IMG/VR virus record: IMGVR_UViG_3300028048_003170
Location: 5,077 to 69,076 of that record
Length of the DNA stretch: 64,000 nt
From: a virus
Lineage: Duplodnaviria; Caudoviricetes
Strand: one strand, 5' to 3'
Below, piece after piece: positions 3,362 to 40,954 of the stretch (the first letter of the stretch is position 1; the number at the start of each line of letters is the position of its first letter). The translations under genes and the position numbers were made by a program. Below the pieces are notes generated by a model. It was not told where the DNA came from. It saw only the letters and a list, made by a program, of their open reading frames with translations, and did no database searches.

Positions 3362-3396
3362 CAAAGGTCGCCATAATGTGCGGATGGAGAAAAGAC
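3362..3396 (-). promoter_or_regulatory. Putative phage late promoter (GTCTTTT-N20-GACCTTTG) for tape measure
   Basis: Plus strand caaaggtc 3362-3369, 20 nt spacer, aaaagac 3390-3396; same geometry at four other operon starts. Confidence 0.65.
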
Positions 3397-21146: not shown

Positions 21147-21207
21147 ACCAATAAAAATGACCCCGGAACGCTATCGCGTTTCCGAGGCTGACATTTACTG
21201 TTTGTGA

Positions 21208-21774: not shown

Positions 21775-21787
21775 ACAAATTAGTAAA

Positions 21788-23209: not shown

Positions 23210-23217
23210 ATTGGATT

Positions 23218-24147: not shown

Positions 24148-26214
24148 TTACTGTTTTTGTTGGATGAAGGTGATGGTGCATTCTTTGCAGCGACGGACTT
24201 CTTGGCGGTTTCGAGCAAGCGAGAACCGCTCATATTTTTCAAATATGTCTAGTCCGCGCCCTAAGGTAATGCGCCATCCATTATTAAGATCTATCATACG
24301 GTCATGCGTTGCATTGAAATCGTGAGTAAACTCGACTCCAAGGGGAGCCAGTTCATCGGCAAGATCCGTGAACGTGTCAATCAATTCAGCGACTTTTTCA
24401 TCATCTGGATTACTGGTGCTCAAGTGGATTTTCAGTTCCTCGGGATTATTGCAGCAATCACGACAGGTTTGAATGAAATCCACGAGATTATCCACTTGGA
24501 ATGGATAACGGATGAATGGATCAATAATCTTGATTTCTGTAGCTGTACGCAAATAATCTCCAAAGAGAGAAGCGTAGGTAACACCTTTTTGATTTAATCG
24601 AAGGTCAATTGATTTGTTCGTTAGTCTGACAATCTTGGGACGAGACTTTGCCTCGGACGAAGGATTTGATTCGTCAGACATATCAGCTGGTGCGTTACCG
24701 TCAGTAGGCTCATCGACATCGATGTCCGTTTCTTGTTCAATACCATTCTCTAGGCATTCGAGAGTGACAATTTTCTTTTGTTGCCCAGTTGAGGGTATTG
24801 TGTAGACGAACTTTGCAGGCTCAGCCTTGAAGGTTTCGTCAATGATATAAAGCTGGTCCTTTACGCGCTTTCTGCATTCGGCGGCAAAGTCAATTATCTC
24901 ATAAACTTCTTCCTCGGTTACGTTGCCATCAGGATAGAGAAGTTTCATCATGCCTGAAAAAGTCTTGCGGATAGCAAGGTGGTCTCGCTCAGATAGCGAA
25001 CCGTCAAAAATTGCATAGTCGTTCAGATTGCCTGTGAGATCGATGTTGCGAAGCTCATGCAAGACTGCAGCGATGTAGTCTGTAATCAAACCATAGCCCT
25101 TCGAGAAGCTGTTCTTCTTAAGCATCCTGATTTCCCATCCTGGGTTATAAAGATGAATACGATCCAAAAAGGCACCCTTAATAAACGATGTTGGAATGCT
25201 CTCAAACAGATGAGACTGGTTCAGCATAAATGGCACAGTATGCTTGGTGTTGCCGACAAAGACCATTGAGGCGCTTGCCTCATGTGGGGATCCACCGCGG
25301 TTAAAACTCTTGTTGGCAAGATAATTCTGCATCGTGTCGATGAGCACAGCATCGACGCTTCGGCCCTTTTGTTGCTCAAACTCGTCCCAAGCCACGACAT
25401 CCCAATAGCAGACAAGTCCAAGATTTTCCCTGTTGCCGGTCATCTTGACAAATAGGCGTGCGCTGGTTACGTCGCCGCCACTCACCAGTACGCCGTAAGG
25501 CGACAGTTCCTGGAACACATGACTCTTGCCGGTTCCCTTTGGTCCGAGTTCAACGAAGTTGAAATTATTCTCCACCAGAGGGATGAGACGTGCCAAAGTG
25601 ATGAACTTTTCACGGCGATTAAGTAATGATGGTTCCAGTCCCACGGTGTGAATGAGGAAATCAATCCATTCATCGGTAGTGAATTTGCTACGTTGTGCCT
25701 TGTAATCATTAATGTCGATGTTGGAGATTTGCACAGGTTTCAGCGACTGGATGTCCCAACGAACCCTTACTTCTCCAAGAAGGTATTTTATTCTGACAAT
25801 GCACCACACGCCATTGCCACTCAATAGCTTGGGATTTTCATTAACTATATTATTCGCCAGCGGGATTTTTCGCAGGTCTAGATTTGCAAAACTGGCCTCG
25901 AAGAGGTCGGCACGGTCATTAAGTGTTACATTAATTTTATCGATGACGGTGAATGTGCTTAACTCTTTTATTTTGCCTTTTATTTCTTCGGCTTCAGCAC
26001 GGTTCACATAGTTGTTTCGGATGATTTCCTTAACCTGCTCGATGCCCTGTGCTATCTGCTGTTCGTCGCTAGTAGCACAGTATTGCGCCAGCAAGTACTC
26101 CAGCACATACGTAGGGACAGGCAATCCACCCTTTACTTGGAAGGCTAGGTCTTTCCTAACTACTAAGCCCTCAAAGGCGTTTAAAATCTTTTCTTGTAGA
26201 TTATCCATAATCAT
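24148..26214 (-). CDS. brxL: BREX BrxL ATPase, with C-terminal MIT_C/PLD-like domain
   Basis: VPTYVLEYLLAQYC, ELGPKGTGKSH, AFLDRIH; C-terminal DPFIR...HDR....NGW.I.LGRGLDIF. Confidence 0.9.
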   Translation of the reverse strand: MIMDNLQEKILNAFEGLVVRKDLAFQVKGGLPVPTYVLEYLLAQYCATSDEQQIAQGIEQVKEIIRNNYVNRAEAEEIKGKIKELSTFTVIDKINVTLNDRADLFEASFANLDLRKIPLANNIVNENPKLLSGNGVWCIVRIKYLLGEVRVRWDIQSLKPVQISNIDINDYKAQRSKFTTDEWIDFLIHTVGLEPSLLNRREKFITLARLIPLVENNFNFVELGPKGTGKSHVFQELSPYGVLVSGGDVTSARLFVKMTGNRENLGLVCYWDVVAWDEFEQQKGRSVDAVLIDTMQNYLANKSFNRGGSPHEASASMVFVGNTKHTVPFMLNQSHLFESIPTSFIKGAFLDRIHLYNPGWEIRMLKKNSFSKGYGLITDYIAAVLHELRNIDLTGNLNDYAIFDGSLSERDHLAIRKTFSGMMKLLYPDGNVTEEEVYEIIDFAAECRKRVKDQLYIIDETFKAEPAKFVYTIPSTGQQKKIVTLECLENGIEQETDIDVDEPTDGNAPADMSDESNPSSEAKSRPKIVRLTNKSIDLRLNQKGVTYASLFGDYLRTATEIKIIDPFIRYPFQVDNLVDFIQTCRDCCNNPEELKIHLSTSNPDDEKVAELIDTFTDLADELAPLGVEFTHDFNATHDRMIDLNNGWRITLGRGLDIFEKYERFSLARNRQEVRRCKECTITFIQQKQ

Positions 26215-28757
26215 TAAAATATATCTCGGTCAACAATAGTTTTGTTCATTACATGTGTTCGCAACAGCGGATTTAGGTTCTCTTTATCACTTTCGTCATA
26301 GATGCGAAGTTCGATCAATGAGGCTGAACTGTCTTTCAGAGTGAGTGTCACATTGAATACGCGGTGCAGCAGTTCGGGCTCAATGCTGTTGATCTCCACG
26401 CTTTTCTCGTCCGATACCATCTTGTCCTTGTCCCACAAGGCGCATTTAACTGTACGGGGTTTGACATCGGCCGAAACAGCCTGCTTCTGGATTAACGTAA
26501 AGTGCAGCATGCTCGACACAATGGAAAAGTTCGTTCCTACGAACTCTATATCCACACGCGGTAGTGTTTCTATAGACTCCTCACGAATATGGCTTTCAAT
26601 GATCGGTATTACCATCTCCTGCAATGATGCGCCTCCATGTGCATAGTTGTAACGCCCGTTCGAAGACAACCTGTTGGTACCGAAGGGTACAGCCACCCAA
26701 ATAGATTCATCAGCTTCTATCGCACTTACTTTGTTCAGCGGGAACTTCGTAATGTGTGTTTCTTGAGCTTCTCTATGAGTGAGATAGTATCGGCTGGTGC
26801 GCTCAATACACTCATCGTTGATTTTCTGCAGGTCTTTCTCCTCAAACTTGTGGTCGTTGAAGAGGAAACCATGGTCAGAGGTGATAAAGACTTTTGTCAC
26901 GTTGAATGACACATGAATGCTCTTCACAAGTTTGGCAATCTCAGTGACGGCGTCGCTGCATGCTTTGGTGACCGCCCTCGACGAGTCATACTTGTGTCCG
27001 CTCTCATCAATGTTGTCATAGAACACATACACAAGCCTCGATTTGAATCGTTGCCGGTTCGTGTCCCGTTGCGCGTTGCTCACATCTTTAAAAGTGAAGC
27101 AGTTTGCATCGGGCACATATTTGCGTACCTGCTGTTGGCGTTGCTCGGTTGATACGAGCACCTTGCCATCCACCTCCATTTTGTCTACTACGAGTTTAAG
27201 ATGCTCATGCGGAAGTAAAGCTGTTTTGCAATATTTCGTCTCTGTTGGCAGCATGGCCACAGCGGGGCGGATGTTCACATCGTGTTTTTCCTCAAACAGG
27301 CGACGCATGATTTCCATGCCCACCTCATAGCGAAGTCCGTCTACCACAACCACTGCAGTTTTGACGGTTTCCGGCTTGATGCACTGGTTATAGAAGTCAT
27401 TTTGATGGAGTACCTCTACACCGCCATCACGCAGCAGTGTGTTCATCCATTTCTGGTTGAAGTCGTTACACAGCTGTGCGTATTCCCGGTTCATCTCTTC
27501 TCTTGCAAGCAGAAGCGATTCGCGCACAGACAGGGCATTGTCCTGCTCTGTGAGAACAGCGGCTTCGATGGCCTTACGATAAGCGAAGTCCACCTTCTGG
27601 AATTCGTTGGCATAGAATTTCACATACTCGTTAGCTGTGCTGGGCAGCGACAGCGCCGACACGGCATCAGCAGCCAGATAGAAGCGAGCGATAAGCCGCA
27701 TCATGTTGATGGCATGGGCCACATCGTCACCGATGAGGGGCATCCACCGCTGCTCTGGAGTGAACCTTACTACCGCCTCCGGTTTCTTTTTCAGTTGTCC
27801 CTCAATGATATGTTTCATCATCGGCAGGCACATGCGGGCAGTGACATAGTTAAAGTTGGCACTTGTACCATAGCAGGCAAAGATTTTCTCCTCATCGATC
27901 TCCTCGCTCAAAGCGGTAAAGGCTGTAGCAAAGTCTTTACCATATTTGGCGTGCCGCAGTCCATGCTCCAGCAGTGTCAGCATGGTTTTGTTTGCCAGTA
28001 CGCTGTGTACCTTGAAACGGCGGTAGTCATCCTTATCTGATTCCAGCAGATGCACAGTGAGTACATTGTACTTGATACTCTGTGCTACCTTGCGCATGCG
28101 CAACAGGTCATTGTCATCATAGCACTGGCCAGTGTTGCTCTGTAACCATGAGTTCAAGCCTGCCTTGGCAGGGAGGCAGCGCTTCAAGCCAGAGAACACC
28201 CGATTGCGTTGTGACTCCTTGCCATCGATTGCCATGGCGATTAGAGCGATAGCGACATCTTCCCACGAGAGCATCTCGCTGCTGTTCAGATAGAATGAGA
28301 TGATTGCCCGTTGAGCCAGATCTTCACTGAACTGGCGCTCGGCGAGAAAGGGTGCGATGATTCTCCCTACGCCACCTATGTTGAGCATCGGGATATAGGT
28401 CTCTACTGTTGACCTGTGTTCTTCGGCCAGGCCGTGTTCTTGCATGTATTCTGCGGCATCGTCGAGTTGGAGCACAGCGTTGGCCATCATCTCTCCCATG
28501 AGCGGGAAAGCCTCACGTGATTCAGCGTTTCTTGGCTCTGAGCAGGTGAGGTAGAGAATAATCTTCTTGTCTTTCCATTGGTGCTGAATGTCATATTTCA
28601 CACGGAACGATGGTTCGCAGGCGATAACCAACTGATAGCCTTCGCGCCAAGCAATCTGCTGTAGGTCACTCTCCAGCTGGTGCATGGCATCGAACACGAA
28701 GAGCACCCTCAGCCGATGGTTGCGCTCGAAATAGCGGTATATTTTGTCTTCGATCAT
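26214..28757 (-). CDS. pglZ: BREX PglZ alkaline-phosphatase-family protein
   Basis: AVVVVDGLRYE, LPTETKYCKTALLP, ITSDHGFL, YAHGGASLQEMVIP. Confidence 0.93.
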   Translation of the reverse strand: MIEDKIYRYFERNHRLRVLFVFDAMHQLESDLQQIAWREGYQLVIACEPSFRVKYDIQHQWKDKKIILYLTCSEPRNAESREAFPLMGEMMANAVLQLDDAAEYMQEHGLAEEHRSTVETYIPMLNIGGVGRIIAPFLAERQFSEDLAQRAIISFYLNSSEMLSWEDVAIALIAMAIDGKESQRNRVFSGLKRCLPAKAGLNSWLQSNTGQCYDDNDLLRMRKVAQSIKYNVLTVHLLESDKDDYRRFKVHSVLANKTMLTLLEHGLRHAKYGKDFATAFTALSEEIDEEKIFACYGTSANFNYVTARMCLPMMKHIIEGQLKKKPEAVVRFTPEQRWMPLIGDDVAHAINMMRLIARFYLAADAVSALSLPSTANEYVKFYANEFQKVDFAYRKAIEAAVLTEQDNALSVRESLLLAREEMNREYAQLCNDFNQKWMNTLLRDGGVEVLHQNDFYNQCIKPETVKTAVVVVDGLRYEVGMEIMRRLFEEKHDVNIRPAVAMLPTETKYCKTALLPHEHLKLVVDKMEVDGKVLVSTEQRQQQVRKYVPDANCFTFKDVSNAQRDTNRQRFKSRLVYVFYDNIDESGHKYDSSRAVTKACSDAVTEIAKLVKSIHVSFNVTKVFITSDHGFLFNDHKFEEKDLQKINDECIERTSRYYLTHREAQETHITKFPLNKVSAIEADESIWVAVPFGTNRLSSNGRYNYAHGGASLQEMVIPIIESHIREESIETLPRVDIEFVGTNFSIVSSMLHFTLIQKQAVSADVKPRTVKCALWDKDKMVSDEKSVEINSIEPELLHRVFNVTLTLKDSSASLIELRIYDESDKENLNPLLRTHVMNKTIVDRDIF

Positions 28758-28768
28758 AATTATTTTTA

Positions 28769-31700
28769 TTAGATTTTTGCTAAAACGTCACCAAAAAGGA
28801 CATAGTTCTTGGCCACACCATCGTCGAGGTCGAAGGCAATCTGCCGGTCGGCAACGACCTTGAGACGCTCCTGATATTCCTCGCACTCGTCTATGGCCTT
28901 GCGCAGTTTGTCGGCTGTACTCTGCTTACGGTCATCAAGGGCCTGCTGTAAGCGGTTACGCAGGTTGTCGATGTATGGCAGCAGGTACTTGTGGCGTACC
29001 TGGTCGGCAGTCCATTGCGTCATGCGGTGCATATAGACGACGCACTGGAAGGCGCCTCGCTTGCTGCGGAACAGCCAGTAGATAGGTCGGTTCTGGTAGC
29101 GACTCTTGTGGTCTTTCCAGAAGTCCTTAATCAAGTACTGCTCCAGTGTCTTGCCCAGGCATTGCTCCACAAAGTTGAGGTTCAGGCTCAGCGTCTCGTT
29201 GCCAAAGACGGTTTTCAGGAAGTCGATGATGCGGGCACGTGCGTTGTCGGGGAAGCCACAGTCGGCAGGAAGCAACGGTATGATGCCGTCATCATCGACC
29301 TCGAAGCGGGAGTTGGGCACCTGAGCCTCATACTCCTTCAATCCGTCTCCCTGATTGGCGAGAATCAGCCCGGGCTTGTCGATGCTGTAGCGGCCCATCA
29401 TGCAGCCCACAGCATAGCTGATGAACTGCTTCATGATAACGTCATCATGCCAGACGATTTCATTATTCTCAATCGAGATCTCACCCTGTTGCAGGATGGT
29501 GACCTCGTTCATCGGAACGTCAGGTGTTAGCTCATCCTGCAGCCCATAGATGTCAATGAACTGTCGGTTGAGTTCTTCCTCGTTGGCATGGAGACGCTCG
29601 AAACATTCTTCCCAATGATTCTTGTAGTACTCTAAGAGAACATCGATATGATGCAATGCTTTTTGATCACCGCTCAATTCGGTTTCCTCCCTAAATGTTC
29701 TCAACAGCTCATTTTCCTTGAAGTCCCACGACGTTTCATGAGCGTCCCAATCCTCACGAGAAATCGAAATGTTCTGATTTGTCCTATTCAATATCTCTGA
29801 GTAATCTTTAATTGGTTTATATGGAAGTTTACCTATCATTCCAGCAGTTAGATTAATTGTAGGCGCCAGCATATCGAAAAAGGTCTTTGCGACTTTTGTA
29901 TTAAGATAGCCCATACAGACCTGCAGTTTTTCAATATCTGAGCAAAACATCGAATCTCCAGCTTGATCAAAGAAACAGCCTTGTGGGAATGCTCTAAGAG
30001 TTATACCTCTTGATGCTATTCGATTCCATGTAATACCTGGTTTTTTATAAAATTGCTGATTTCTCAGTACAGAGCTCTTACAGTTTTTGATTTCTTGTCC
30101 ATCATTATACCAATAGATAAAATCATTAAAATTGCCATACCACTTGCGATAATCGCCACCATTAACGAGAGGGAACCATTTAATATTCCTATCTCTTAAT
30201 GATGTTTCAAACCATGCTCTTATATATTTTGCATTGTTACCAGTTTGAAGCCCAGTTGCAGGAATAAACTCTTGGGAAATACAATTTTTATTAATTGTAT
30301 CAATTATTTCATCTGAGAAAGAATAACAAAATGGACAATTGACTATTCCTTTAAATCTATCTTGAGAACACACGAAATGAATTTTTTTCGCGTCGTTTTG
30401 ATGTTCACACTTAAACGAATTGGAACTATATGATGAAAAATTGTATCTAAAATCTGAATTATTTTTTGACGTCAAAAACAACTCACTTATATGTTCAGGT
30501 TCAATTCTATAAAAAGTTCTTTCGTATAATTTAAAGAAATGTGATAAACCTTTGGAATTTTTTTTACTAAGAGTAAAAGAAATTGATCCCCAATCATTTC
30601 CAAAGTTTCCACGCCCCATATGTAACAATGAGTCAATATGAAAGTTATCTAATATGTCTTGACGTAATTCACCAAAAGAGGAATTTACAAGCCATGTCGG
30701 TTGCACAATCATTGAAAGCATTCCATTCTTATCGATACCATTCATGGCCACATTCATGAATGTTGAATACATATCAAAACAAGAAGATTCATAATACTTT
30801 TCAACATATCCCTTTAAATAATCATTCATATTTGTGGCCTTCATATACGGTGGATTCATCACTAGCACCGAATACCGTTCGGTAAGGGCGAGTATGATTT
30901 CAAAGCCATGGAACAAGTTGGCAAAGTTTTCCTCGAACTGATGTTGGATGGATTGTTGATGCAAGCATTCTTTGATGAAATCTCGCGTTTCAGGTGAAAC
31001 ATCGAACTTCATGATTGAGCCCAGGTTATGGGCTTGCTCCATCAACTTGAATGCTTCAACAAGCTCCTGATTGACTTTGTCCGATGGCAATTGTGCTTTC
31101 AGTGCACACATCATGTGGGCACCCAGGTCTTTCCATGTATAGCAATCAACATCAGGCATGTCGAGTACTTGAGGCATGACATGTGCATCGGCAAAGGCTC
31201 GGTCGCGCTGGCATGCTTTAAGCATTAATGCGAAAGTAGCGAGCTGCTTGGCTCGTGTGTCGATATCGATGCCCGTGAGGTTGTGGGTGAAGATGTTCTC
31301 CACTGCCTCGCGCGTGCTGTAGTCCTCATAGTCATAGAGGTCAAACAGCAAATCGAAGCATTCGGTGAGGATGTGGCCTGAACCGCAGGCGAGGTCAGCC
31401 AGTGAAAGTTCAGGCAGTTCCTTGAACTTGTACGTGGCTTCACCGGGACTGGGTTGTGCTGGATCCACGAGGTACTTCCAACGGGGCTTGAAATGCTCTG
31501 TTGCCTCGGGATGGTTGTCCAGGTAAATGCGCCCCACTGTGTTCTGCACCATGTATTTCACAATCCAGTTGGGCGTGAAAATCTGTGTAGCGGCAGGAAT
31601 GTCGCTTGCCTCAGCCTTTACACCTTTCTTGAATGCTGCAAACACCTCACTCTTGCGATCGCTGATGTAGAACTGATAGAGCCATCCGATAAGTTCCGGC

Positions 31701-32326
31701 GAGCGGTAATCGTCGTCATTGATGGCTTCTGCATTGTTGAGCATATCGACGAACTCACCTTTTGCGAGGATATTGTCAGGCAGGAGGAGTTCACTGTAGT
31801 CCTGCATGCCTCCGAAGCAACGGTAAATGATGGGATTGCTGTGGCAATAGGCAGTGATGAGCAGCAGGAACTGGGCATCACGCTCGGCAGCATTGCCAGC
31901 GACATGGCTCCAGCGCAGCTTGTCGTAATCGCTCATGGGCGGAATGTTCATGCCGCGCCGCGCGTCGGCGACAATCTGCGGGATGCGCATTTCATAATCA
32001 GCGTACTCGATGACCGGGTCAATGAGGCCGTTCTTGGCGAGGATGCGGATGGCAGCCAGTCGGTTAAACCAGGTGTAGGCCACGCGCTCGCACACCTCTC
32101 GCACACCGTAGCGTTCTATGTCGCCCTTGAGCGACTGCCAACGGTAATAGAAGCTCTCGTCGCTGATGGGCCGGCCACGGAACATTGTTCCTCCCTGGAG
32201 AAGCACAGGCTCATCGGTGATGTTGCCCCTTGTGTCAAATCCCGTCTGCTGCAGCTTAAGCAGTACGCCCTGTGTGAGTTTAAGCCTTGCGGTGGTGGCA
32301 AAATTTTTTATCTTTGTTGTTTCCAT
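28769..32326 (-). CDS. pglX: BREX adenine DNA methyltransferase PglX, copy 2
   Basis: PAATQIFTPNWIVKYMV, DLACGSGHIL, MNPPY, C-terminal RPIYW and DLDDGVAKNY. Confidence 0.95.
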   Translation of the reverse strand: METTKIKNFATTARLKLTQGVLLKLQQTGFDTRGNITDEPVLLQGGTMFRGRPISDESFYYRWQSLKGDIERYGVREVCERVAYTWFNRLAAIRILAKNGLIDPVIEYADYEMRIPQIVADARRGMNIPPMSDYDKLRWSHVAGNAAERDAQFLLLITAYCHSNPIIYRCFGGMQDYSELLLPDNILAKGEFVDMLNNAEAINDDDYRSPELIGWLYQFYISDRKSEVFAAFKKGVKAEASDIPAATQIFTPNWIVKYMVQNTVGRIYLDNHPEATEHFKPRWKYLVDPAQPSPGEATYKFKELPELSLADLACGSGHILTECFDLLFDLYDYEDYSTREAVENIFTHNLTGIDIDTRAKQLATFALMLKACQRDRAFADAHVMPQVLDMPDVDCYTWKDLGAHMMCALKAQLPSDKVNQELVEAFKLMEQAHNLGSIMKFDVSPETRDFIKECLHQQSIQHQFEENFANLFHGFEIILALTERYSVLVMNPPYMKATNMNDYLKGYVEKYYESSCFDMYSTFMNVAMNGIDKNGMLSMIVQPTWLVNSSFGELRQDILDNFHIDSLLHMGRGNFGNDWGSISFTLSKKNSKGLSHFFKLYERTFYRIEPEHISELFLTSKNNSDFRYNFSSYSSNSFKCEHQNDAKKIHFVCSQDRFKGIVNCPFCYSFSDEIIDTINKNCISQEFIPATGLQTGNNAKYIRAWFETSLRDRNIKWFPLVNGGDYRKWYGNFNDFIYWYNDGQEIKNCKSSVLRNQQFYKKPGITWNRIASRGITLRAFPQGCFFDQAGDSMFCSDIEKLQVCMGYLNTKVAKTFFDMLAPTINLTAGMIGKLPYKPIKDYSEILNRTNQNISISREDWDAHETSWDFKENELLRTFREETELSGDQKALHHIDVLLEYYKNHWEECFERLHANEEELNRQFIDIYGLQDELTPDVPMNEVTILQQGEISIENNEIVWHDDVIMKQFISYAVGCMMGRYSIDKPGLILANQGDGLKEYEAQVPNSRFEVDDDGIIPLLPADCGFPDNARARIIDFLKTVFGNETLSLNLNFVEQCLGKTLEQYLIKDFWKDHKSRYQNRPIYWLFRSKRGAFQCVVYMHRMTQWTADQVRHKYLLPYIDNLRNRLQQALDDRKQSTADKLRKAIDECEEYQERLKVVADRQIAFDLDDGVAKNYVLFGDVLAKI

Positions 32327-32350
32327 TGATCAGCTTGGTTATTGAAGTTT

Positions 32351-32364
32351 ATGGTCTTGTTCTG
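32351..32364 (-). repeat. Remnant of brxC 3' end in the pglX1-pglX2 spacer
   Basis: atggtcttgttctg is identical to 36006-36019; tgatcagc is also shared (32327 vs 35981). Confidence 0.7.
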
Positions 32365-32380
32365 ATAGAAACTCTAATTG

Positions 32381-35300
32381 CTATATTTTTGCTAAAACGT
32401 CGCCAAAAAGGACATAGTTCTTGGCCACACCATCGTCGAGGTCGAAGGCAATCTGCCGGTCGGCCACGACCTTGAGACGCTCCTGATATTCCTCGCACTC
32501 GTCAATGGCCTTGCGAAGTTTGTCGGCTGTACTCTGCTTACGGTCATCAAGGGCCTGCTGTAAGCGGTTACGCAGGTTGTCGATGTATGGCAGCAGGTAC
32601 TTGTGGCGTACCTGGTCGGCAGTCCATTGCGTCATGCGATGCATATAGACCACACACTGGAAGGCGCCTCGCTTGCTGCGGAACAGCCAGTAGATAGGTC
32701 GGTTCTGGTAGCGACTCTTATGGTCTTTCCAGAAGTCCTTAATCAAGTACTGCTCCAGTGTCTTGCCCAGGCATTGCTCTACAAAGTTGAGGTTCTGGCT
32801 TAGCGTCTCGTTGCCAAAGACGGTTTTCAGGAAATCGATGATGCGGGCTCGTGCGTTGTCGGGGAAGCCACAGTCGGCAGGAAGCAACGGTATGATGCCG
32901 TCATCATCGACCTCGAAGCGGGAGTTGGGCACCTGTGCCTCATACTCCTTCAAGCCGTCTCCCTGATTAGCGAGAATCAGCCCAGGCTTGTCAATACTGT
33001 AACGGCCCATCATACAGCCCACAGCATAGCTGATGAACTGCTTCATGATCACGTCATCATGCCAAACGATTTCATTATTCTCAATCGAGATCTCACCCTG
33101 TTGAAGGATGGTTACTTCGTTCATCGGAACGTCGGACGTTAGCTCATCCTGTAGCCCATAGATGTCAATGAACTGGCGGTTGAGTTCCTCCTCGTTGGCA
33201 TGAATCAGTTTGAACTTTTCGATCCATTTAGCTTTATATTCTTCATAGAGTAAATTCAGGTACGCACTAGATGAAGGATTTGATCCTCCCCATGAAGTAG
33301 TGATAGTACCTAATCCACGTTTTAATAAAGAAATCAGTTCATTGGTTTTGAAGTCCCAAGATGTTTCATGTGCGTCCCAATCCTCCTTGCTTATGGCTAT
33401 ATTTTCTTTAACCTTACTAGTAATATCTGATTCTGGTAAGAAAAAAGGAACAGATTCAAAATTTCCGATTTTGAAATGAATTCCCGGGTTGAGTGTTTCT
33501 GCAAAGAAATCTCCCAATTTAGTATTTAGTAGTCCTAATATCTCATATTTACGGTTGCCATCAATAAACGCAGAATTAGCAGACGCGTCAAATATATAGT
33601 CTATGGGATAATATCTGAATGAAGTTCCATTTGACTTTATATCGCTCCATGAAATGCACTCTTTAAAATAAAAGGATTCATTTCTGATTGATGCTAGTTT
33701 TTTACCTTTTGAATCTTTATATGATTTTAGTTCAGAACCATTTTCAAACCAATTAATCAGATATTCAAGATTTCCATACCATCTTCTCTTTCCACCTCCT
33801 TTATTGTATTTATACCATTTTTGAGATCCATTTTGTTTTGCAATAGTTGACCTTGAAATAGAAATTTCAAACCAAAGTTTCAGGAAATAATCATTATTCG
33901 CGGTCGTAATACCATTTTTAGCGGTAGCGAAATCACCAATTTGATGAATGAATAATGAAATTGCCTTTTTGCTTAGCCAATACCCCGTAATGCGATAGCT
34001 AGGAATGGATTTAAATTGGCTCTGACTAACATCAGGATAATAAATTCCTTTGGTGTGGTTTTTGAGCGCATCGAGGAACATCCGTTCTTTGCTGGCGCAG
34101 TCTTTGCCATCAACGACACGGAAATAGTTTGCAGTACGGCTGCAAACAGCTTGGCAACTTGGAATTTCTGGATGGTTGGGGTCTGAAAAATGGCCTGTAT
34201 AAGTCGGATTAACCTTTGTGATGACGAAGGCAGAGTTTTGCACTACTTCACCACTGAGTTCGTCGAAAGTGCGTGTGCCAAGATGCAGGAGCGAGTCGAT
34301 GGTTTGCTCTTCAAGTATCATTATACGCAGGTTCTCAAACGTCGATAGGAACATCCACGAGTGCATATTGATCATTCCGTACTTGCCTTTGTCGACTAGG
34401 CGATTAATGGCCACTTGCATGAACACGGCAAACAGGTCGGCTTTAGCATCCTCATAATTATCCTTGACATACTTTGACAGTGTTGCATCAAAGTGTGCGC
34501 TGCCCATATAGGGAGGATTCATGATTATCGCTGCATACTTTTCACTGAGCGCCAAGATGATTTCAAAACCTTTGAACATTTCGCCAAATTCTTCCTCATA
34601 CTTTGGCGAAGTTTTTTGCTTATCAATGCATTGCAGAATGAAGTCTCGCGTTTCTTGTGAGATGTCAAACTTTATGATAGAGCCCAGTGTGTCGGCATGC
34701 TCCAGCAGCTTGAAGGCCTCCAGCAGTTCCTGGTTCACTTTTTCGGATGTCCAGTTCACCTTATGTGCGTTCATCATGCGGCCACGCAGATCTTCCCAAG
34801 TGTGTCGGTCAACATTGGGCATGTCAAGTACGCGTGGCATGACATGCGCATCGGCAAAGGCTCGGTCGCGCTGGCATGCTTTGAGCATCAGTGCGAAAGT
34901 AGCGAGCTGCTTGGCTCGAGTGTCGATATCGATGCCCGTGAGGTTGTGGGTAAAGATGTTCTCCACTGCCTCGCGCGTGCTGTAATCCTCATAGTCATAG
35001 AGGTCAAACAGCAAATCGAAGCATTCGGTGAGGATGTGGCCCGATCCGCTAGCGAAATCAGCCAGTGAAAGTTCAGGCAGTTCCTTGAACTTGTACGTGG
35101 CTTCATCGGGAGTGGGCTGTGCTGGCTCCACGAGATACTTCCAACGGGGCTTGAAATGCTCTGTGGCCTCGGGATGGTTGTCCAGGTAGATGCGCCCCAC
35201 AGTGTTCTGCACCATGTATTTCACGATCCAGTTGGGAGTGAAAATCTGTGTAGCGGCAGGAATCTCATCGGCTTTATATTGGCCTTTCTTGTCCATCACT

Positions 35301-35980
35301 TCGCTCTTACGATCGCTGATGTAAAACTGATAGAGCCATCCGATGAGTTCCGGCGAGCGGTAGTCCTCGTCGCTGATGGCATCTTTATCGTTGAGCATAT
35401 CAACGAACTCGCCCTGTGCAAGGATGTTGTCAGGCAAGAGGAGTTCACTGTAGTCCTGCATGCGTCCGAAGCAACGGTAAATGATGGGATTGCTATGGCA
35501 ATAGGCAGTGATGAGCAACAGGAACTGGGCATCACGCTCGGCAGCATTGCCAGCGACATGGCTCCAGCGCAGCTTGTCGTAATCGCTCATGGGCGGAATG
35601 TTCATGCCGCGCCGCGCGTCGGCGACAATCTGCGGGATGCGCATTTCATGATCAGCGTACTCGATGACCGGGTCAATGAGGCCGTTTTTGGCGAGGATGC
35701 GGATGGCAGCCAATCGGTTAAACCAGGTATAGGCCACGCGCTCGCATACCTCGCGCACGCCGTAGCGCTCTATGTCGCCTTTGAGCGACTGCCAACGGTA
35801 ATAGAAGCTCTCGTCACTAATAGGCCGGCCACGGAACATCGTTCCGCCCTGCAGCAGTACGGGCTCATCGGTGATATTGCCCCGTGTGTCAAATCCCGTC
35901 TGCTGCAGCTTAAGCAGTACGCCCTGTGTGAGTTTGAGCCTTGCGGTGGTCGCAAAACGCTTTATCTTTGCCGTTTCCAT
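32381..35980 (-). CDS. pglX: BREX adenine DNA methyltransferase PglX, copy 1
   Basis: Same motifs (DFASGSGHIL, MNPPY); N- and C-termini near-identical to copy 2, central TRD region divergent. Confidence 0.95.
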   Translation of the reverse strand: METAKIKRFATTARLKLTQGVLLKLQQTGFDTRGNITDEPVLLQGGTMFRGRPISDESFYYRWQSLKGDIERYGVREVCERVAYTWFNRLAAIRILAKNGLIDPVIEYADHEMRIPQIVADARRGMNIPPMSDYDKLRWSHVAGNAAERDAQFLLLITAYCHSNPIIYRCFGRMQDYSELLLPDNILAQGEFVDMLNDKDAISDEDYRSPELIGWLYQFYISDRKSEVMDKKGQYKADEIPAATQIFTPNWIVKYMVQNTVGRIYLDNHPEATEHFKPRWKYLVEPAQPTPDEATYKFKELPELSLADFASGSGHILTECFDLLFDLYDYEDYSTREAVENIFTHNLTGIDIDTRAKQLATFALMLKACQRDRAFADAHVMPRVLDMPNVDRHTWEDLRGRMMNAHKVNWTSEKVNQELLEAFKLLEHADTLGSIIKFDISQETRDFILQCIDKQKTSPKYEEEFGEMFKGFEIILALSEKYAAIIMNPPYMGSAHFDATLSKYVKDNYEDAKADLFAVFMQVAINRLVDKGKYGMINMHSWMFLSTFENLRIMILEEQTIDSLLHLGTRTFDELSGEVVQNSAFVITKVNPTYTGHFSDPNHPEIPSCQAVCSRTANYFRVVDGKDCASKERMFLDALKNHTKGIYYPDVSQSQFKSIPSYRITGYWLSKKAISLFIHQIGDFATAKNGITTANNDYFLKLWFEISISRSTIAKQNGSQKWYKYNKGGGKRRWYGNLEYLINWFENGSELKSYKDSKGKKLASIRNESFYFKECISWSDIKSNGTSFRYYPIDYIFDASANSAFIDGNRKYEILGLLNTKLGDFFAETLNPGIHFKIGNFESVPFFLPESDITSKVKENIAISKEDWDAHETSWDFKTNELISLLKRGLGTITTSWGGSNPSSSAYLNLLYEEYKAKWIEKFKLIHANEEELNRQFIDIYGLQDELTSDVPMNEVTILQQGEISIENNEIVWHDDVIMKQFISYAVGCMMGRYSIDKPGLILANQGDGLKEYEAQVPNSRFEVDDDGIIPLLPADCGFPDNARARIIDFLKTVFGNETLSQNLNFVEQCLGKTLEQYLIKDFWKDHKSRYQNRPIYWLFRSKRGAFQCVVYMHRMTQWTADQVRHKYLLPYIDNLRNRLQQALDDRKQSTADKLRKAIDECEEYQERLKVVADRQIAFDLDDGVAKNYVLFGDVLAKI

Positions 35981-35992
35981 TGATCAGCGTTA

Positions 35993-38900
35993 TTATTGGA
36001 TGATGATGGTCTTGTTCTGCTCGATTATCTTCATCATGGCAGAGCGTAACTCGGCCAAATAATTGTCCACCTGCTCGGTGGTAGAGATGACGCGGTTCAC
36101 TGGTAAGTGCAACACTTCGGGTTCACTGACTTCAGGTTTTTCTTTTTCGCCTTTGCCTCCGTTCACGTCCTTCTTAACGACCGGTTTGCTGGCGGCTTTT
36201 ACGATGGCCACCGTCTGCTTACTGATAAATGCGCTCACCGCTCCCACATGTAGTTTGAGCACGGCAATGCTGTCGCCCTGCGATTGCACATGGATGGTTG
36301 CGTCCTCATCGGGCAGTACTGACGTCTTCAGTCCGCGGCGCTCCTCTTCCTGCCGTAGTTGTGTAAACGCAGCATGGTAGGCCTCTTCGATTTCTTTCTT
36401 CACTGCTTTCTTCTCTTCATCGATGGCTTTAGTAAGAGTCACGACGGCATTTTTATAGGAGCGGATGTTATCCCAGGGATGTTCGTCCGTAAGAATGTTT
36501 CTGAGCGCTTCTACATCAGACCTGGTTGTATCGGGGAGGAAGGTGAAATTCTCCTCATTCTTCTTGAAGAAGTCCCTGCACGACAGATAATATGGTTCAG
36601 CGTTATCGCCCGAGATATAACGTTGGTAGAATTCGCTGATGCGCTTCACGTCGTCCATCAAGTTTTTGGCATGCCTGCGCTGATCCACCACAATTTGGAA
36701 GAATTCCTTTGCTCCAGTCTGCTGTTCCCAGGATTCGAGCATCGTTAGAGCCTGCTTCATAGGCTCTGCAAAGATGTAACTATTAATCCGTTGTAGGATG
36801 CGGCGGCAAGCGCGAAGCCACTTCAGCATTTCACTGCTCTGGTCTTTAGCGCATTCGTTATAAAGTATGTCGGCATCCGTAGTGAATGAACCAGTAATAA
36901 TAAAGATGTCTTTCCAGGCGCTAATGAAGTCATTGACCAGCACTGTATCCACCACTTTGGCGGGCACAAGGGTGAACTTGCTGCTGTTTTTGACAATGTT
37001 ACGCCTTTCATTATCGGTAATCTCGCGGTCGTTCCCACAGGTTAAATCCCAGAACCTGCGGCGCACGAGCTCGTTGACTATAAAGATAGTGAACTCATTG
37101 CTCCAGCCGTAGGGTACACCGCCAAAATCACGGCAGATTTTCTCGAGGTTAAGCGAACCGACATGCGGTTTTTGCAGATATTCGTTCACCTCAATCTCTG
37201 GCCTACTGAGTGGCTTGAGTTTATATTCATTTGGGTCGCGAGGCTGTGTTAGGCGTTTCTGCAAATCAAAATCGGTGTCAGCGTAGGTGGCGTAGGGATA
37301 GAGCTGCTTCAGGTGCAGGTCGAGGGCTGAGAGATAGCGGTTTGGGCCCTCGTTGGTGATGCCTTTGAGCACTTGGTTATAACTGATGACTGTCGCCTTG
37401 TTGAACAATTTTTTCAGCCAAGGCTCGATGCGTTCGGTCTTCGTTTGGTTGACCCGAGAAGAAATATCTTCGATGGCTTTCTTGTAATCGTCGTTGGCAG
37501 CGGGATGGGTTGACCTGTAAATGTTGACCTTGCAAAACCAGATGAAATCATCATATTCATCGCTCGAAGCGAATTCTGAAGTCATGAGGAAGATTAGTTT
37601 GTTTCGCATGTTGCCGTAGGCGATATCATCTGCTGATCTGTCGTCGGCCAACTCGATGTCCACCCACACATCAGGGTTGTTAGTGGTTAGATAAGGACGC
37701 TCGCCGATGTGCCATCCTACGGTTGCGTCGCGTGAGTAAAAGCGACGCTTGTTGGAGGGGATGATGTAAGATTTGTATTCGTTCCACAGTGTCTCCGAAA
37801 TTGTCAAGCCATCAACATCAATACTACTGATGATATTAACAAGTTCGCGCTCTGCCGCAGTGTAAAATTCATAGTAATCGCTCTTGCCTGTGGAATGAAT
37901 GACTCGAATGATGTTGCTCTTTACCAAGTAGGTCAGCACCTTCTCGGTGCGTTCCTTGATGCTCCGTTTGTCTTCATCCACATTGCCGATAAGCAGCGTA
38001 ACGATGTTGTCTACAGTGGCAGCGAAGACGGTGCGCGTGCTCTCGTCGAGGTTACATATCATGAACAGTACATGAAGCACACGCTGTGCGAAATTCTTGT
38101 CTTCGCTGTAGGCATCAGCCACATTGGCAGCATTGCGTATAGCATTGAGGCCAGTGGCTGTAAGGCCGCCATCAAACACCGCGTTATAGAACTGATCGAA
38201 AGAGGCCAAGCGACCTAATTCCTCTTGCTGTGTATTTTTAGCGGTGGTGTGCGTCATCTTAATGATGCTACGCTCGGTACCTTTCTTCTCTTTGTCGATA
38301 TATCCCAGACTTACCATATTGTTCAGCACCTGCATGATCAGGGTGAACTGATAGGGCACAAACGGATAGATGTCGATAAATTCGCGGCGGTCCTTGAAAC
38401 TGTCATAGCCTGTGGGCAGATGGAATTGAGATTCTAGCGTCACTTTGTTTTCGTCGAAGATTTTGCCCAGCGTTTGATCGGCAGCGGGTGTCTTCTCCAG
38501 CAGACGCACTTTGGTGATATATTCGGGCTTGGTGCCTTGCAACGACACACGTACTTCAAAGCGTCCCATAATCTTGCCGTAGTCGTCCTCTGTTTGTTTG
38601 ACATGGCTGGAGCGCACTACTTCGCTTAGGTCCTGTTGGGCGGTGCAGGCCATCCAAACCTTGTTGCCACACACTTCGTCAAATTTAGTGATCAAGCCTT
38701 GCAACTGTAGCAGCAGTTCGCGCTTATTGTCGATAAACTGGCTCACCTCATCCACGCAGAATACTAAGCGGTAGTCATCGCCCTTGCTCTTGATGTAGTC
38801 CTCCAGCTCACTGCAGAAACTCTCGATGCCTACCTCCATAGTGCGGTTTTTGATGTCGTTACGGACCACGTCGTAACTCTTGCCTGGCATCAGCTCCTTG

Positions 38901-39547
38901 GCAATGTCAAGGATGCGGTCTAAATCAAGTTTGAGCGCACGCTCCAACTTACCCATGTTGGCTTCAGCCAGTCGGCGGCGGAATTCTTCTAACTTACCCA
39001 CTTTATCAAGAGGCTGCTCGATGTATTCAGCAAAAGGCAGGTTAATGGTGTTATATCCGCGCAGGCGGTTAAGCTCCGTCCAGAGGATACCGGGGAACGA
39101 CTGCTTTAGCTGGTCAGTGTCTTTCACATAGTTCTCAAGGCTGAACAACACAACCTCGGCTTTTGTGCGATTTAACCAGCGCTTGAGTTCCCTCACTTCG
39201 AGTGGGGTGACATCAAGCATGATTTCCGGGTCAGCCTTCATTTCATCAACTGTTGCCAGCAAACGGTCCATTGCCCGTTCGCTGTAGATTGGATCCAGGC
39301 AGTAGCAAACATATTTAAGGAAGTGAGATTTACCACTTCCGTAGTAGCCGTTAATCCAGATGCCATTGTGGCTGCCCTGCTTTGTTCGAATGCCATTTAA
39401 CACATCGTAGATTCCTTTGATGATTTCTTTAGTAAAAACATACTCATCAATTTCGATTTTCACAGTCTCTTCATCTCGCTTGTCAGCATAGACGGCAGGG
39501 TTGACCTCTCTATTGATGTCTTTAAGATAAATTTCGTTGAGTCTCAT
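35993..39547 (-). CDS. brxC: BREX P-loop ATPase BrxC
   Basis: GIWINGYYGSGKSHFLK, CVDEVSQFI, YPFVPYQF; 1184 aa. Confidence 0.93.
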   Translation of the reverse strand: MRLNEIYLKDINREVNPAVYADKRDEETVKIEIDEYVFTKEIIKGIYDVLNGIRTKQGSHNGIWINGYYGSGKSHFLKYVCYCLDPIYSERAMDRLLATVDEMKADPEIMLDVTPLEVRELKRWLNRTKAEVVLFSLENYVKDTDQLKQSFPGILWTELNRLRGYNTINLPFAEYIEQPLDKVGKLEEFRRRLAEANMGKLERALKLDLDRILDIAKELMPGKSYDVVRNDIKNRTMEVGIESFCSELEDYIKSKGDDYRLVFCVDEVSQFIDNKRELLLQLQGLITKFDEVCGNKVWMACTAQQDLSEVVRSSHVKQTEDDYGKIMGRFEVRVSLQGTKPEYITKVRLLEKTPAADQTLGKIFDENKVTLESQFHLPTGYDSFKDRREFIDIYPFVPYQFTLIMQVLNNMVSLGYIDKEKKGTERSIIKMTHTTAKNTQQEELGRLASFDQFYNAVFDGGLTATGLNAIRNAANVADAYSEDKNFAQRVLHVLFMICNLDESTRTVFAATVDNIVTLLIGNVDEDKRSIKERTEKVLTYLVKSNIIRVIHSTGKSDYYEFYTAAERELVNIISSIDVDGLTISETLWNEYKSYIIPSNKRRFYSRDATVGWHIGERPYLTTNNPDVWVDIELADDRSADDIAYGNMRNKLIFLMTSEFASSDEYDDFIWFCKVNIYRSTHPAANDDYKKAIEDISSRVNQTKTERIEPWLKKLFNKATVISYNQVLKGITNEGPNRYLSALDLHLKQLYPYATYADTDFDLQKRLTQPRDPNEYKLKPLSRPEIEVNEYLQKPHVGSLNLEKICRDFGGVPYGWSNEFTIFIVNELVRRRFWDLTCGNDREITDNERRNIVKNSSKFTLVPAKVVDTVLVNDFISAWKDIFIITGSFTTDADILYNECAKDQSSEMLKWLRACRRILQRINSYIFAEPMKQALTMLESWEQQTGAKEFFQIVVDQRRHAKNLMDDVKRISEFYQRYISGDNAEPYYLSCRDFFKKNEENFTFLPDTTRSDVEALRNILTDEHPWDNIRSYKNAVVTLTKAIDEEKKAVKKEIEEAYHAAFTQLRQEEERRGLKTSVLPDEDATIHVQSQGDSIAVLKLHVGAVSAFISKQTVAIVKAASKPVVKKDVNGGKGEKEKPEVSEPEVLHLPVNRVISTTEQVDNYLAELRSAMMKIIEQNKTIIIQ

Positions 39548-39565
39548 ATTATTATTCTGTTTTAT

Positions 39566-40174
39566 TTATTCATTAATTAAGTAAGAAGCCCTGTAGAAGT
39601 GCGCATCGTCAAGAAGGTTGAAAAGCGAATAAGAATTACCTACACGCTCACCAGGGTAGAATACAATGATTTTGTATCGCCCCACCTTGTTGAATTCCTC
39701 ATAGAGAGTGAGGAAGGCATTGGTGCGCAGGTATGGGAATATGCGGTCGATGCCATAAAGGAATACATAAGGCCGACGCAATCCGTCGCCCTCACGCTCC
39801 ACATGATCGATGATACGCTGATGGATATAGGCCAAAAAATCGTGACTTCTCGCCTCATCACAGAGGAGGTCATTGATGTCATCGTTATCAAGGCCGCGTT
39901 CATTGTCGTAGAGCAGCTTCAACATTGAGCTATAATCTCCATAACTGCTTTGGTCAAGGTAATTGCAGAATTCCTCGAAAATATCAAGGGATAGCACGTC
40001 TATGAAGTTATTTGGACGGCTCAGTGCATCCTTGAATTTGACGAGTTCTTCCTCAAGTTCATATTCATCCTCAATGCGGTAGGCATAGAGGAAATAATTA
40101 TAAAAAATATCACCGTTGGCCGGGTCTTGGAATCTCGGGTCGGAGAGTTTCTCGAGTAATGGTTGTAGGTTCAT
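39566..40174 (-). CDS. brxB: BREX protein BrxB (DUF1788)
   Basis: ATG overlaps brxA stop (ATGA); VFLYGIDRIFPYLR, IVFYPG, HFYRA motifs. Confidence 0.88.
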   Translation of the reverse strand: MNLQPLLEKLSDPRFQDPANGDIFYNYFLYAYRIEDEYELEEELVKFKDALSRPNNFIDVLSLDIFEEFCNYLDQSSYGDYSSMLKLLYDNERGLDNDDINDLLCDEARSHDFLAYIHQRIIDHVEREGDGLRRPYVFLYGIDRIFPYLRTNAFLTLYEEFNKVGRYKIIVFYPGERVGNSYSLFNLLDDAHFYRASYLINE

Positions 40175-40809
40175 GACAAAGCTTTTATAATGTTTTCTTT
40201 TTCGTAAGGCAGTAACAGGCAAGCATCGAGGTACCAGTCTTCGCCATTAATAATGTAATATCGATAATCCTGCGGATCCAACAGGAGAGGCTGAAGTTGG
40301 CCATTTGCATCGAGAATTCCTGCCTGCCTTAGAATGGTAAGGTAGGCACTTGTGATTTTACCTCGCGTTTTCTCGGACCAGGAATCCACGAACTGGTCTT
40401 GTGAAGCAATCTGATAATACTCCATCATGACATCGTTTTTGCTAAGTGAGTGGTCTGTAGAGTTCCATCGACGCATAGTGAGGTTAACATGGAAGTCAAA
40501 GATGAGACGGTAGCATTTCAGGATGCAGTAGAACAGGGCAGCCCGCTGGCCTTTCTCAGAGAGCTGCTCATACCATTTCCAAAAATCCAATGAGACTGCG
40601 TCAAATCGTTTACGGAATTCCGCGATGATTCTTTTCGCGCCAATCTCACTGTTTACTTGAATGAGCCCTCGATCCTTAATTTCCTTCTTCAAGAGTACGT
40701 CTGCTTCTGGCGACAGTAATAAGGGAAGCACCCTATTGAATTCGTAAAACATGAACGAGCATCCAGTGAAGGAAGCGCTGTAGGGACTAGAATTGCGATC
40801 AGTTGCCAT
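40171..40809 (-). CDS. brxA: BREX protein BrxA (DUF1819)
   Basis: Start MATDRNSSPYSASFTG; WSEKT..KI.SAYLTILRQAGIL pattern; first gene of the operon. Confidence 0.88.
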   Translation of the reverse strand: MATDRNSSPYSASFTGCSFMFYEFNRVLPLLLSPEADVLLKKEIKDRGLIQVNSEIGAKRIIAEFRKRFDAVSLDFWKWYEQLSEKGQRAALFYCILKCYRLIFDFHVNLTMRRWNSTDHSLSKNDVMMEYYQIASQDQFVDSWSEKTRGKITSAYLTILRQAGILDANGQLQPLLLDPQDYRYYIINGEDWYLDACLLLPYEKENIIKALS

Positions 40810-40954
40810 ACTATTATATTTATAATTAAAACAAACTCCAATGCAGTCCCTGCAGGCCGACCAAAGCCTATATAACCGCAAAGGAGTTTGTGAAATTTTC
40901 GTTTTCTCGGTCTGTTGCAGGTATAGATCCCGTTATGGTGGAAAATCGTAAGTG

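What the first reader, a model, noticed from the sequence alone, without database searches (positions are those of the whole stretch)
28769..35980. Two full-length tandem PglX methyltransferases with different specificity regions: dual-specificity or recombination-switchable BREX
Seen: direct tandem copies (1199 and 1185 aa), both with intact motif I and NPPY. The N-terminal ~390 aa and C-terminal ~260 aa are near-identical at DNA level. The post-NPPY region is divergent and AT-rich, and a short loop differs (VFAAFKKGVKAEASD vs VMDKKGQYKADE). No recombinase is nearby. Established: PglX determines BREX site specificity; described phase variation uses inverted partial pglX copies and a recombinase. 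Inference: one BREX machine reads two motifs at once. Homologous recombination in the N-terminal repeats would leave TRD2 only, in the C-terminal repeats TRD1 only, giving a heterogeneous population and new hybrids.
Basis: partly seen in the sequence, partly recalled or inferred. Interest (0 to 1): 0.86.

Follow-up and report, generated by a model that had tools for sequence, protein, structure and literature searches.

The report
Two stacked PglX genes in BREX
A phage-defence (BREX) operon carried by a prophage holds two complete copies, side by side, of the enzyme that chooses which DNA motif is marked as 'self'; they share their partner-facing ends but differ in the DNA-reading middle, so the system probably guards two motifs at once, a layout that recurs in a few percent of related gut and rumen Bacteroidales loci.

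Summary
Observation confirmed. A minus-strand type 1 BREX operon (brxA-brxB-brxC-pglX1-pglX2-pglZ-brxL) holds two intact tandem pglX genes (1199 and 1185 aa). Both align end to end with solved BrxX/PglX and keep motif I and NPPY. The ends are 94-99% identical in protein. The middle (aa ~380-930) is 20-40% identical and AT-rich; it holds every known specificity determinant.

It is not an assembly artefact. The 54-nt spacer is a decayed brxC 3' end. An independent metagenome contig (L087) carries the same junction with a different TRD in its upstream copy. Six other Bacteroidales loci show the same layout.

The shared ends are not a recent duplication: dS is 0.20-0.29 and omega 0.016-0.08, so these are old alleles under strong purifying selection. 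No recombinase, inverted repeat or slippage tract lies nearby.

Best reading (~0.6): both enzymes use the same BrxB/BrxC/PglZ machine, giving two-motif defence, as shown experimentally for the two BrxX of Haloarcula type V BREX.

This scan has already noted two-PglX BREX loci on other DNA. Novelty: a new variant of a known kind.

The parts
40171..40881 (-). brxA (start codon uncertain)
   Evidence: Pfam BrxA, E 1e-31
39566..40222 (-). brxB
   Evidence: Pfam BrxB, E 3e-19
35993..39547 (-). brxC (1184 aa). Its last ~35 nt are the model for the fossil in the pglX1-pglX2 spacer.
   Evidence: Pfam BREX_BrxC_helical. 93% identical to BrxC of the sister locus L086.
32381..35980 (-). pglX1 (1199 aa), upstream full-length methyltransferase/specificity subunit
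34850..35980 (-). pglX1 constant 5' block: NTD plus the motif-I half of the methyltransferase domain
   Evidence: 91.7% DNA and ~94% protein identity to the same block of pglX2; dS 0.23-0.29, omega 0.07-0.08
33198..34849 (-). pglX1 variable cassette: NPPY half of the methyltransferase domain, TRD and spacer helices. AT-rich.
   Evidence: 20-40% protein identity to pglX2; GC 0.29-0.45. Domain map from E. coli BrxX (PMC11842806).
32381..33197 (-). pglX1 constant 3' block (C-terminal globular part of the CTD)
   Evidence: 95.8% DNA and 99% protein identity to pglX2; 30 synonymous against 2 nonsynonymous differences, omega 0.016
32327..32380 (-). 54-nt spacer holding a decayed copy of the brxC 3' end and the conserved GCTGATCA-ATG start context
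   Evidence: The same spacer, with 1 change, is in the independent contig L087.
28769..32326 (-). pglX2 (1185 aa), downstream full-length methyltransferase/specificity subunit
29586..31186 (-). pglX2 variable cassette, from a distinct long-branch clade of middles with NPPYMKAT. AT-rich.
   Evidence: Tree of middles; closest other middles 68% identical; GC 0.29-0.45
26214..28757 (-). pglZ
   Evidence: Pfam PglZ, E 4e-35
24148..26214 (-). brxL
   Evidence: Pfam BrxL_N, BrxL_ATPase

Best explanation
The locus is a type 1 BREX operon in which two old alleles of the specificity subunit pglX have been stacked head to tail.

Inferred mechanism: both genes are transcribed with brxABC and pglZ-brxL. 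Each PglX docks through the shared N-terminal domain and the shared C-terminal part of the CTD onto the same BrxB/BrxC/PglZ machinery. Each reads its own 6-bp motif with its own cassette (methyltransferase-domain loop plus TRD). The lysogen is therefore methylated at two motifs, and incoming DNA is checked at both. That widens the set of phages carrying target sites and makes escape by site loss or by a single adventitious methylation harder.

Shown here: the anatomy, the intact catalytic motifs, the recurrence of the layout, the inherited junction and the pattern of selection. Not shown: expression of both genes, two methylated motifs, and use of both in restriction.

The tandem probably arose when a pglX allele arrived together with the tail of its own brxC. 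Homologous recombination and gene conversion in the constant blocks then reshuffle or delete cassettes as a side effect, not as a programmed switch.
For: 1. Both ORFs are intact, align full length to solved BrxX/PglX, and keep motif I, NPPY and the SAM-contact residues that can be read from the alignment.

2. The operon is complete. No terminator-like site lies on the coding strand between pglX1, pglX2 and pglZ. pglX2 keeps the same GCTGATCA-ATG start context as pglX1 and as the single-copy sister locus L086.

3. The variable cassette (aa ~380-930) contains the methyltransferase-domain loop and the TRD residues that read the motif in E. coli BrxX. The metal site and the rest of the C-terminal domain lie in the constant part (PMC11842806).

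4. The constant blocks differ at synonymous sites (dS 0.20-0.29) but hardly in protein (omega 0.016-0.08). Both alleles have therefore been kept under strong purifying selection.

5. In all six two-pglX loci where both copies were aligned (the window, L008, L010, L018, L099, L150), the two C-terminal regions are 93-99% identical within a locus and 55-87% between loci. All middles differ (31-52% identity). Every copy keeps the catalytic motifs.

6. An independent contig (L087) has the same junction, with 1 change in 54 nt, but a different TRD in its upstream copy. The tandem is therefore inherited and its cassettes turn over.

7. The exact PglX1 and the exact PglX2 are each recorded on 4 contigs from JGI/IMG and ENA.

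8. Precedent: the two BrxX of Haloarcula hispanica type V BREX methylate separate motifs, and both are needed for defence (bioRxiv 10.64898/2026.04.28.721311).
Against: - There are no methylome, RNA or protein data.
- The selection signal in point 4 may have built up while the alleles lived in separate genomes, so it does not prove that both work in the tandem state.
- No tandem pair was found conserved as an orthologous pair across distant genomes, so the state may be short-lived.
- In an even sample of 400 Bacteroidales genomes, none of the 13 other PglX-bearing genomes had a tandem.
- In Lacticaseibacillus paracasei Zhang, the second BREX methyltransferase is not needed for 6mA (PMC10164179).
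- How PglX contacts its partners is not structurally known (PMC13326643).
Confidence: 0.6

Rival explanations
1. Transient allele stacking. The tandem is an intermediate of allele replacement. Only one PglX is used; the other is a spare, or is on its way to loss by deletion between the direct repeats. It could also have a non-catalytic or regulatory role, like the 'second methyltransferase' of L. paracasei Zhang.
For: - Tandems are rare: about 4 of 90 related loci that span brxC to pglZ, and none among 13 other PglX-bearing genomes in an even sample.
- The pairs are not orthologous between distant loci, and the order of cassette types is reversed in L018.
- The sister locus L086 has a single mosaic pglX.
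- 6mA in L. paracasei Zhang depends on pglX only (PMC10164179).
Against: - Both 3.6-kb ORFs are intact in the window and in five other directly adjacent pairs, with catalytic motifs kept.
- The junction is shared by two lineages whose upstream copies differ by a whole TRD. The tandem has therefore outlived at least one cassette exchange.
- The start context of pglX2 is preserved.
Confidence: 0.25
2. Recombination-driven diversity generator. The array is selected because crossovers and gene conversion in the constant blocks make single-cassette or chimeric derivatives. This would give a population that is mixed in BREX specificity.
For: - The direct-repeat geometry is right. Identical runs reach 131 nt (5' block) and 122 nt (3' block).
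- The 5' block of L086 and L087 is a fine mosaic of pglX1-type and pglX2-type sites.
- Left breakpoints of cassettes differ among alleles: aa ~390, ~480 and ~640.
- A variant of PglX2 carries a different N-terminal domain (P0121).
Against: - Deletion is irreversible, so it is not a switch.
- The repeats are 4-8% diverged with dS 0.2-0.3, so they are not being homogenised. From general knowledge of RecA and mismatch repair, that divergence lowers recombination.
- There is no recombinase, inverted repeat or slippage tract.
- No within-population variant could be examined.
Confidence: 0.12
3. Assembly artefact that merges two strain alleles into a false tandem.
For: The record comes from a sequence collection with many metagenome assemblies. 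Related strains do carry different alleles with similar flanks.
Against: - The junction is a unique, decayed brxC tail that an assembler cannot invent.
- The same junction is in an independent contig from another sample.
- The two copies differ by 4-8% even in their 'shared' blocks, so they are easy to tell apart.
- Both exact proteins are on 4 contigs from two sources.
- The same layout occurs in other assemblies, one of them titled as a strain, not a MAG (Prevotella sp. B2-R-102, L018).
Confidence: 0.03

Closest known systems
Type V BREX of Haloarcula hispanica with BrxX1 and BrxX2 (bioRxiv 10.64898/2026.04.28.721311)
   Same: One BREX locus holds two full-length PglX/BrxX methyltransferases. 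There it was shown that each modifies its own motif (GTAYCCG and GACCCC) and that both are needed for protection.
   Different: The Haloarcula system is archaeal type V, with two BrxC and BrxHII in place of BrxL. Its two brxX genes are separated by brxZ, are 53% identical throughout, and make m4C. Here the system is bacterial type 1 with a single brxC. The genes are directly adjacent and mosaic, with ends 94-99% and middle 20-40% identical. No function was tested here.
Phase-variable pglX (Lacticaseibacillus rhamnosus GG, Brevibacterium casei; PMC9881135; also Goldfarb et al. 2015, recalled from memory, paper not held)
   Same: The N- and C-termini of PglX stay constant while a middle part varies. 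The variable part is the specificity region.
   Different: The known cases use inverted, partly promoterless copies and an adjacent recombinase, and express one variant at a time. Here both copies are complete and in direct orientation, with no inverted repeats or nearby recombinase.
Canonical single-pglX type 1 BREX (E. coli HS, Salmonella, Acinetobacter); closest natural relative is locus L086
   Same: Same six genes in the same order. L086 has BrxC 93% identical, and PglZ 92% identical overall to the window's (94-99% per 100-aa block over the part of pglZ its contig holds). Its pglX has the same constant ends.
   Different: Those loci have one pglX. L086 carries a third, different middle cassette.
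'Second methyltransferase' of the L. paracasei Zhang BREX (PMC10164179; Hui et al. 2022, cited there)
   Same: Two methyltransferase genes annotated within one BREX cassette.
   Different: There 6mA depends on pglX alone and the second gene is described as regulatory. Its layout relative to pglX was not examined here.

Membership tests
Type 1 BREX | brxA, brxB, brxC, pglX, pglZ and brxL together in one co-oriented cluster | tested here: met
   All six families were found in order on the minus strand, 24148-40881.
PglX/BrxX methyltransferase (both copies) | Full-length four-domain architecture (NTD, MTD, TRD, CTD) | tested here: met
   Alignment over residues 1-1198 (pglX1) and 1-1184 (pglX2) to 8C45 and 9EWZ. 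PADLOC PglX model matched 1-1170 of 1174 positions.
PglX/BrxX methyltransferase (both copies) | SAM motif I (GxG) and catalytic motif IV (NPPY) | tested here: met
   GSGHIL at aa 308 and 311; NPPY at aa 488 and 491.
PglX/BrxX methyltransferase (both copies) | m6A methylation of a non-palindromic motif that depends on BrxB, BrxC and PglZ | not testable with these tools
   Needs a methylome of wild type and single-gene deletions.
Invertible (shufflon-type) phase-variable pglX | Inverted repeats or inverted partial pglX copies | tested here: not met
   No inverted repeat of 25 nt or more involving pglX in 20000-43000. Both copies are direct and full length.
Invertible (shufflon-type) phase-variable pglX | Site-specific recombinase next to pglX | tested here: not met
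   No resolvase/invertase. The only tyrosine integrase is at record position 667-1104, about 33 kb away.
Two-methyltransferase BREX as in H. hispanica type V | Two complete brxX/pglX genes in one locus | tested here: met
Two-methyltransferase BREX as in H. hispanica type V | Type V gene set (two brxC, brxHII helicase) | tested here: not met
   The Pfam scans of the operon's ORFs found one brxC and brxL, and no second brxC or helicase gene. No dedicated search for BrxHII was run.
Two-methyltransferase BREX as in H. hispanica type V | Two independently methylated motifs, both required for defence | not testable with these tools
   Experimental.

The most novel reading that the evidence does not exclude
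Stacked pglX alleles form a natural, recombination-fed specificity array. Both enzymes would be active on one BREX machine. Exchange in the strictly conserved docking ends (NTD and C-terminal CTD) would continually create new cassette combinations, including chimeras of one copy's methyltransferase-domain loop with another TRD. In that case Bacteroidales BREX would evolve its targets the way Type I hsdS does, but without any dedicated recombinase. The constant blocks would also mark the still unknown PglX-partner interfaces.
Probability: 0.3. Interest if true: 0.75.

Novelty: new variant of a known kind. Interest (0 to 1): 0.55.

Why it matters
BREX specificity is set by one protein, and how that protein docks on the rest of the machine is unknown.

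Natural tandems whose two copies are forced to share one set of partners act as a ready-made domain-swap experiment. They separate what must stay constant from what can be exchanged as a unit:
- Constant: NTD plus the motif-I half of the methyltransferase domain, and the last ~265 aa.
- Exchangeable: the NPPY half of the methyltransferase domain, the TRD and the spacer helices.

If both copies are active, type 1 BREX can be multiplexed. That matters for phage host-range prediction in gut and rumen Bacteroidales and for engineering BREX with several targets.

The system also rides on a prophage, so a two-motif epigenetic barrier may move between strains in one step.

Tried and rejected
- Megablast of the 7.2-kb pair against E. 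coli genomes, plasmids and phages found nothing.
As a result I could not inspect the 4 contigs with the exact proteins, the 190-kb contig of the PglX2 variant P0121, or the candidate pairs P0002/P0148, P0076/P0153, P0083/P0139 and P0045/P0191.
- A scan of IMG/VR for the exact junction found nothing. The IMG/VR protein scan gave only two distant single-copy loci.
- The idea that the pair is an anciently conserved A/B paralogue pair was rejected. Cassette types and their order differ among tandem loci.
- The idea of a recent duplication with homogenised ends was rejected because of dS 0.2-0.3.
- The spacer looked more conserved than the flanking synonymous sites between the window and L087 (1 of 54 against 3 synonymous changes in roughly 35 sites, counted by hand from the alignment). 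The numbers are too small to claim constraint.
- Goldfarb et al. 2015 is not held. What it says about duplicated pglX is recalled from memory only.
- No structure or complex prediction was run. Full-length sequence homology to solved structures already settles the fold, and a docking job would not separate the rivals.
Full report
**What is there.** The window is part of a 69-kb IMG/VR provirus record. It is a real tailed prophage, with a tape measure gene at 2-3454, a portal-like gene at 16133-17494, a large terminase at 42714-44345, a head protease at 49025-50110 and a primase at 52813-55986. A complete type 1 BREX operon lies on the minus strand between the terminase and the portal-side genes: brxA, brxB, brxC, pglX1 (32381-35980, 1199 aa), pglX2 (28769-32326, 1185 aa), pglZ and brxL. 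The operon has lower GC (0.44-0.49) than the phage flanks (0.52-0.55). The closest relatives of its PglX are from Bacteroidales, mostly rumen and gut MAGs, at about 50% identity.

**Checking the observation.** Both PglX proteins align over their whole length with Salmonella PglX (8C45) and E. coli BrxX (9EWZ). Both match the PADLOC PglX model end to end. Both keep motif I (D-x-A-x-GSGHIL) and NPPY.

- Protein identity is 94% over aa 1-385, 35% over aa 480-880 and 99% over the last 265 aa.
- DNA identity is 91.7% in the 5' block, 45% in the centre and 95.8% in the 3' block.
- The centres are AT-rich in both copies (GC 0.29-0.35). The same dip is present in every relative examined, so it is a property of the family's exchangeable cassette, not of this locus.
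- I found no resolvase, and the only integrase is about 33 kb away. There are no inverted repeats and no slippage-prone tract apart from an A8 run in pglX2. No terminator-like site lies on the coding strand between pglX1, pglX2 and pglZ.

**Where the boundaries fall.** E. coli BrxX has an NTD (1-210), an MTD (211-650), a TRD (651-837) and a CTD (838-1205). Bases 1-4 of its motif are read by the TRD and base 6 by MTD loop 587-601. The metal site is at residues 997-1113 (PMC11842806). The variable cassette here runs from aa ~380 to ~930. It therefore holds the NPPY half of the MTD, the TRD and the two spacer helices, which is every known specificity determinant. The constant parts are the NTD, the motif-I half of the MTD and the globular end of the CTD. 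Published work suspects these regions of contacting other BREX proteins (PMC12839542, PMC13326643).

**It is not an artefact, and it is not new.**

- The 54-nt spacer contains a decayed copy of the last ~35 nt of brxC followed by the same GCTGATCA-ATG start context as pglX1. pglX2 therefore arrived with the tail of a brxC.
- Contig L087, from a different metagenome, ends with the same pglX stop, the same spacer (1 change in 54 nt) and the first 95 nt of a pglX2-like gene.
- The upstream gene of L087 is pglX1-like up to aa ~640 and then carries a different TRD. The tandem has therefore been inherited, and a TRD was exchanged inside it.
- The exact PglX1 and the exact PglX2 are each recorded on four contigs from two sources.
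- Contig L086 is a sister BREX locus. Its BrxC is 93% identical, and its PglZ is 92% identical overall (94-99% per 100-aa block over the part its contig holds). It has a single pglX with the same ends and a third cassette.
- Across the window, L086 and L087 there are four different TRDs. The left breakpoints fall at aa ~390, ~480 and ~640, and the right boundary is common near aa 930.
- Within the 5' block, L086 and L087 are fine mosaics of pglX1-type and pglX2-type sites.

**The shared ends are old.** Between pglX1 and pglX2 the constant blocks have dS 0.20-0.29 and omega 0.016-0.08. The 3' block has 30 synonymous and 2 nonsynonymous differences. This rules out a recent duplication and rules out ongoing homogenisation. 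The ends are alike because selection keeps the protein the same. The same dS range separates these genes from the L086 and L087 alleles, so pglX1 and pglX2 are two members of an old allele pool. The 4-8% DNA divergence should also slow deletion between the repeats; that step rests on general knowledge of RecA and mismatch repair, not on a test here. The longest identical runs are 131 and 122 nt.

**Recurrence.** Pairs of full-length pglX also occur in six other loci besides L087:

- L008, L010 and L018 (L018 is titled Prevotella sp. B2-R-102)
- L099 and L150
- L032, with accessory defence genes between and inside the copies

In every pair where both copies were aligned, the C-terminal regions are 93-99% identical within the locus and 55-87% between loci. 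The middles are 31-52% identical, and all catalytic motifs are kept. The spacers differ in sequence, so these are separate origins. The cassette types and their order are not conserved; the L018 pair has the pglX2-like cassette upstream.

The frequency is low. About 4 of 90 related loci that span brxC to pglZ have two full-length copies. In an even sample of 400 Bacteroidales genomes, 14 had a PglX match, and only the genome used as the centre had a tandem.

**Reading.** The best-supported explanation is that both enzymes work on one BREX machine and give two-motif discrimination. The supporting points are the intact genes, the single operon, the preserved start context, docking ends held constant by selection, cassettes that cover all specificity determinants, an inherited junction with cassette turnover, and the experimental precedent in Haloarcula hispanica type V BREX. 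In that system BrxX1 and BrxX2 modify separate motifs and both are required (bioRxiv 10.64898/2026.04.28.721311).

The main rival is that the tandem is a short-lived stacking state with one idle copy. That fits the rarity and the lack of orthologous pairs. It also fits the L. paracasei Zhang case, where the second BREX methyltransferase is not needed for 6mA (PMC10164179).

The geometry is right and the flanks do recombine over evolutionary time, but nothing shows within-population variation, and the tools that could have shown it were unavailable.

**Novelty.** I found no paper in the searchable library that describes directly adjacent full-length pglX pairs in type 1 BREX. Known pglX variation uses inversion with a recombinase (PMC9881135). 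The two-methyltransferase principle itself is now published for type V. Earlier notes of this scan already report two-PglX BREX loci in other genomes, and the fossil spacer in this window. I therefore class this as a new variant of a known kind, of moderate interest.

Noticed in passing
window 21208-42418 within prophage genes (TerL 42714-44345, portal-like 16133-17494): The whole ~20-kb BREX island sits inside a tailed prophage, between the terminase and portal-side genes, with GC about 5-10 points below the phage flanks. That is a very large cargo for a 69-kb provirus.
   Followed up: partly
P0121 (1181 aa, ENA contig of 190,481 bp): A variant of PglX2 is 100% identical from aa ~240 to the end but only 38-58% identical in the first ~230 aa. 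The N-terminal domain can therefore also be exchanged. Its genomic context could not be fetched.
   Followed up: partly
L069:10001-15001 (uncultured Clostridia MAG): A pglX whose TRD-like segment (query aa 651-883) is followed by two further direct copies of the same segment before the C-terminal part. This may be an in-line array of TRD cassettes.
   Followed up: no
L032:168-21943 (uncultured Prevotellaceae RUG216): A heavily decorated BREX locus. The order is brxC, two GmrSD-like genes, pglX, a SIR2-like gene, a second pglX cut at aa ~969 by a Schlafen/AlbA_2 ATPase gene, its detached C-terminal piece, a DUF1016/YhcG nuclease and pglZ.
   Followed up: partly
all pglX genes examined (window, L008, L010, L018, L086, L087, L099, L150): GC drops by 10-25 points, to 0.29-0.36, over the TRD region in every gene, whatever the GC of the ends. 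This suggests a shared AT-rich cassette pool.
   Followed up: partly
L097:10001-13666 and 21202-23646: A second pglX-like gene starts about 7.5 kb downstream of the first on the same strand and is cut by the end of the fetched locus. It may be another spaced two-pglX layout or a second system.
   Followed up: no
window 30558-30565: A T8 run (A8 on the coding strand) inside the AT-rich cassette of pglX2. It is the only homopolymer of 8 or more in the pair and is probably too short for phase variation.
   Followed up: no
related loci, interval from the end of brxC to the start of pglZ: The distance ranges from 3.5 to 16.6 kb across 90 loci. Most Bacteroidales BREX loci therefore carry extra genes around pglX. 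Earlier scan notes describe a cargo slot that splits pglX.
   Followed up: no
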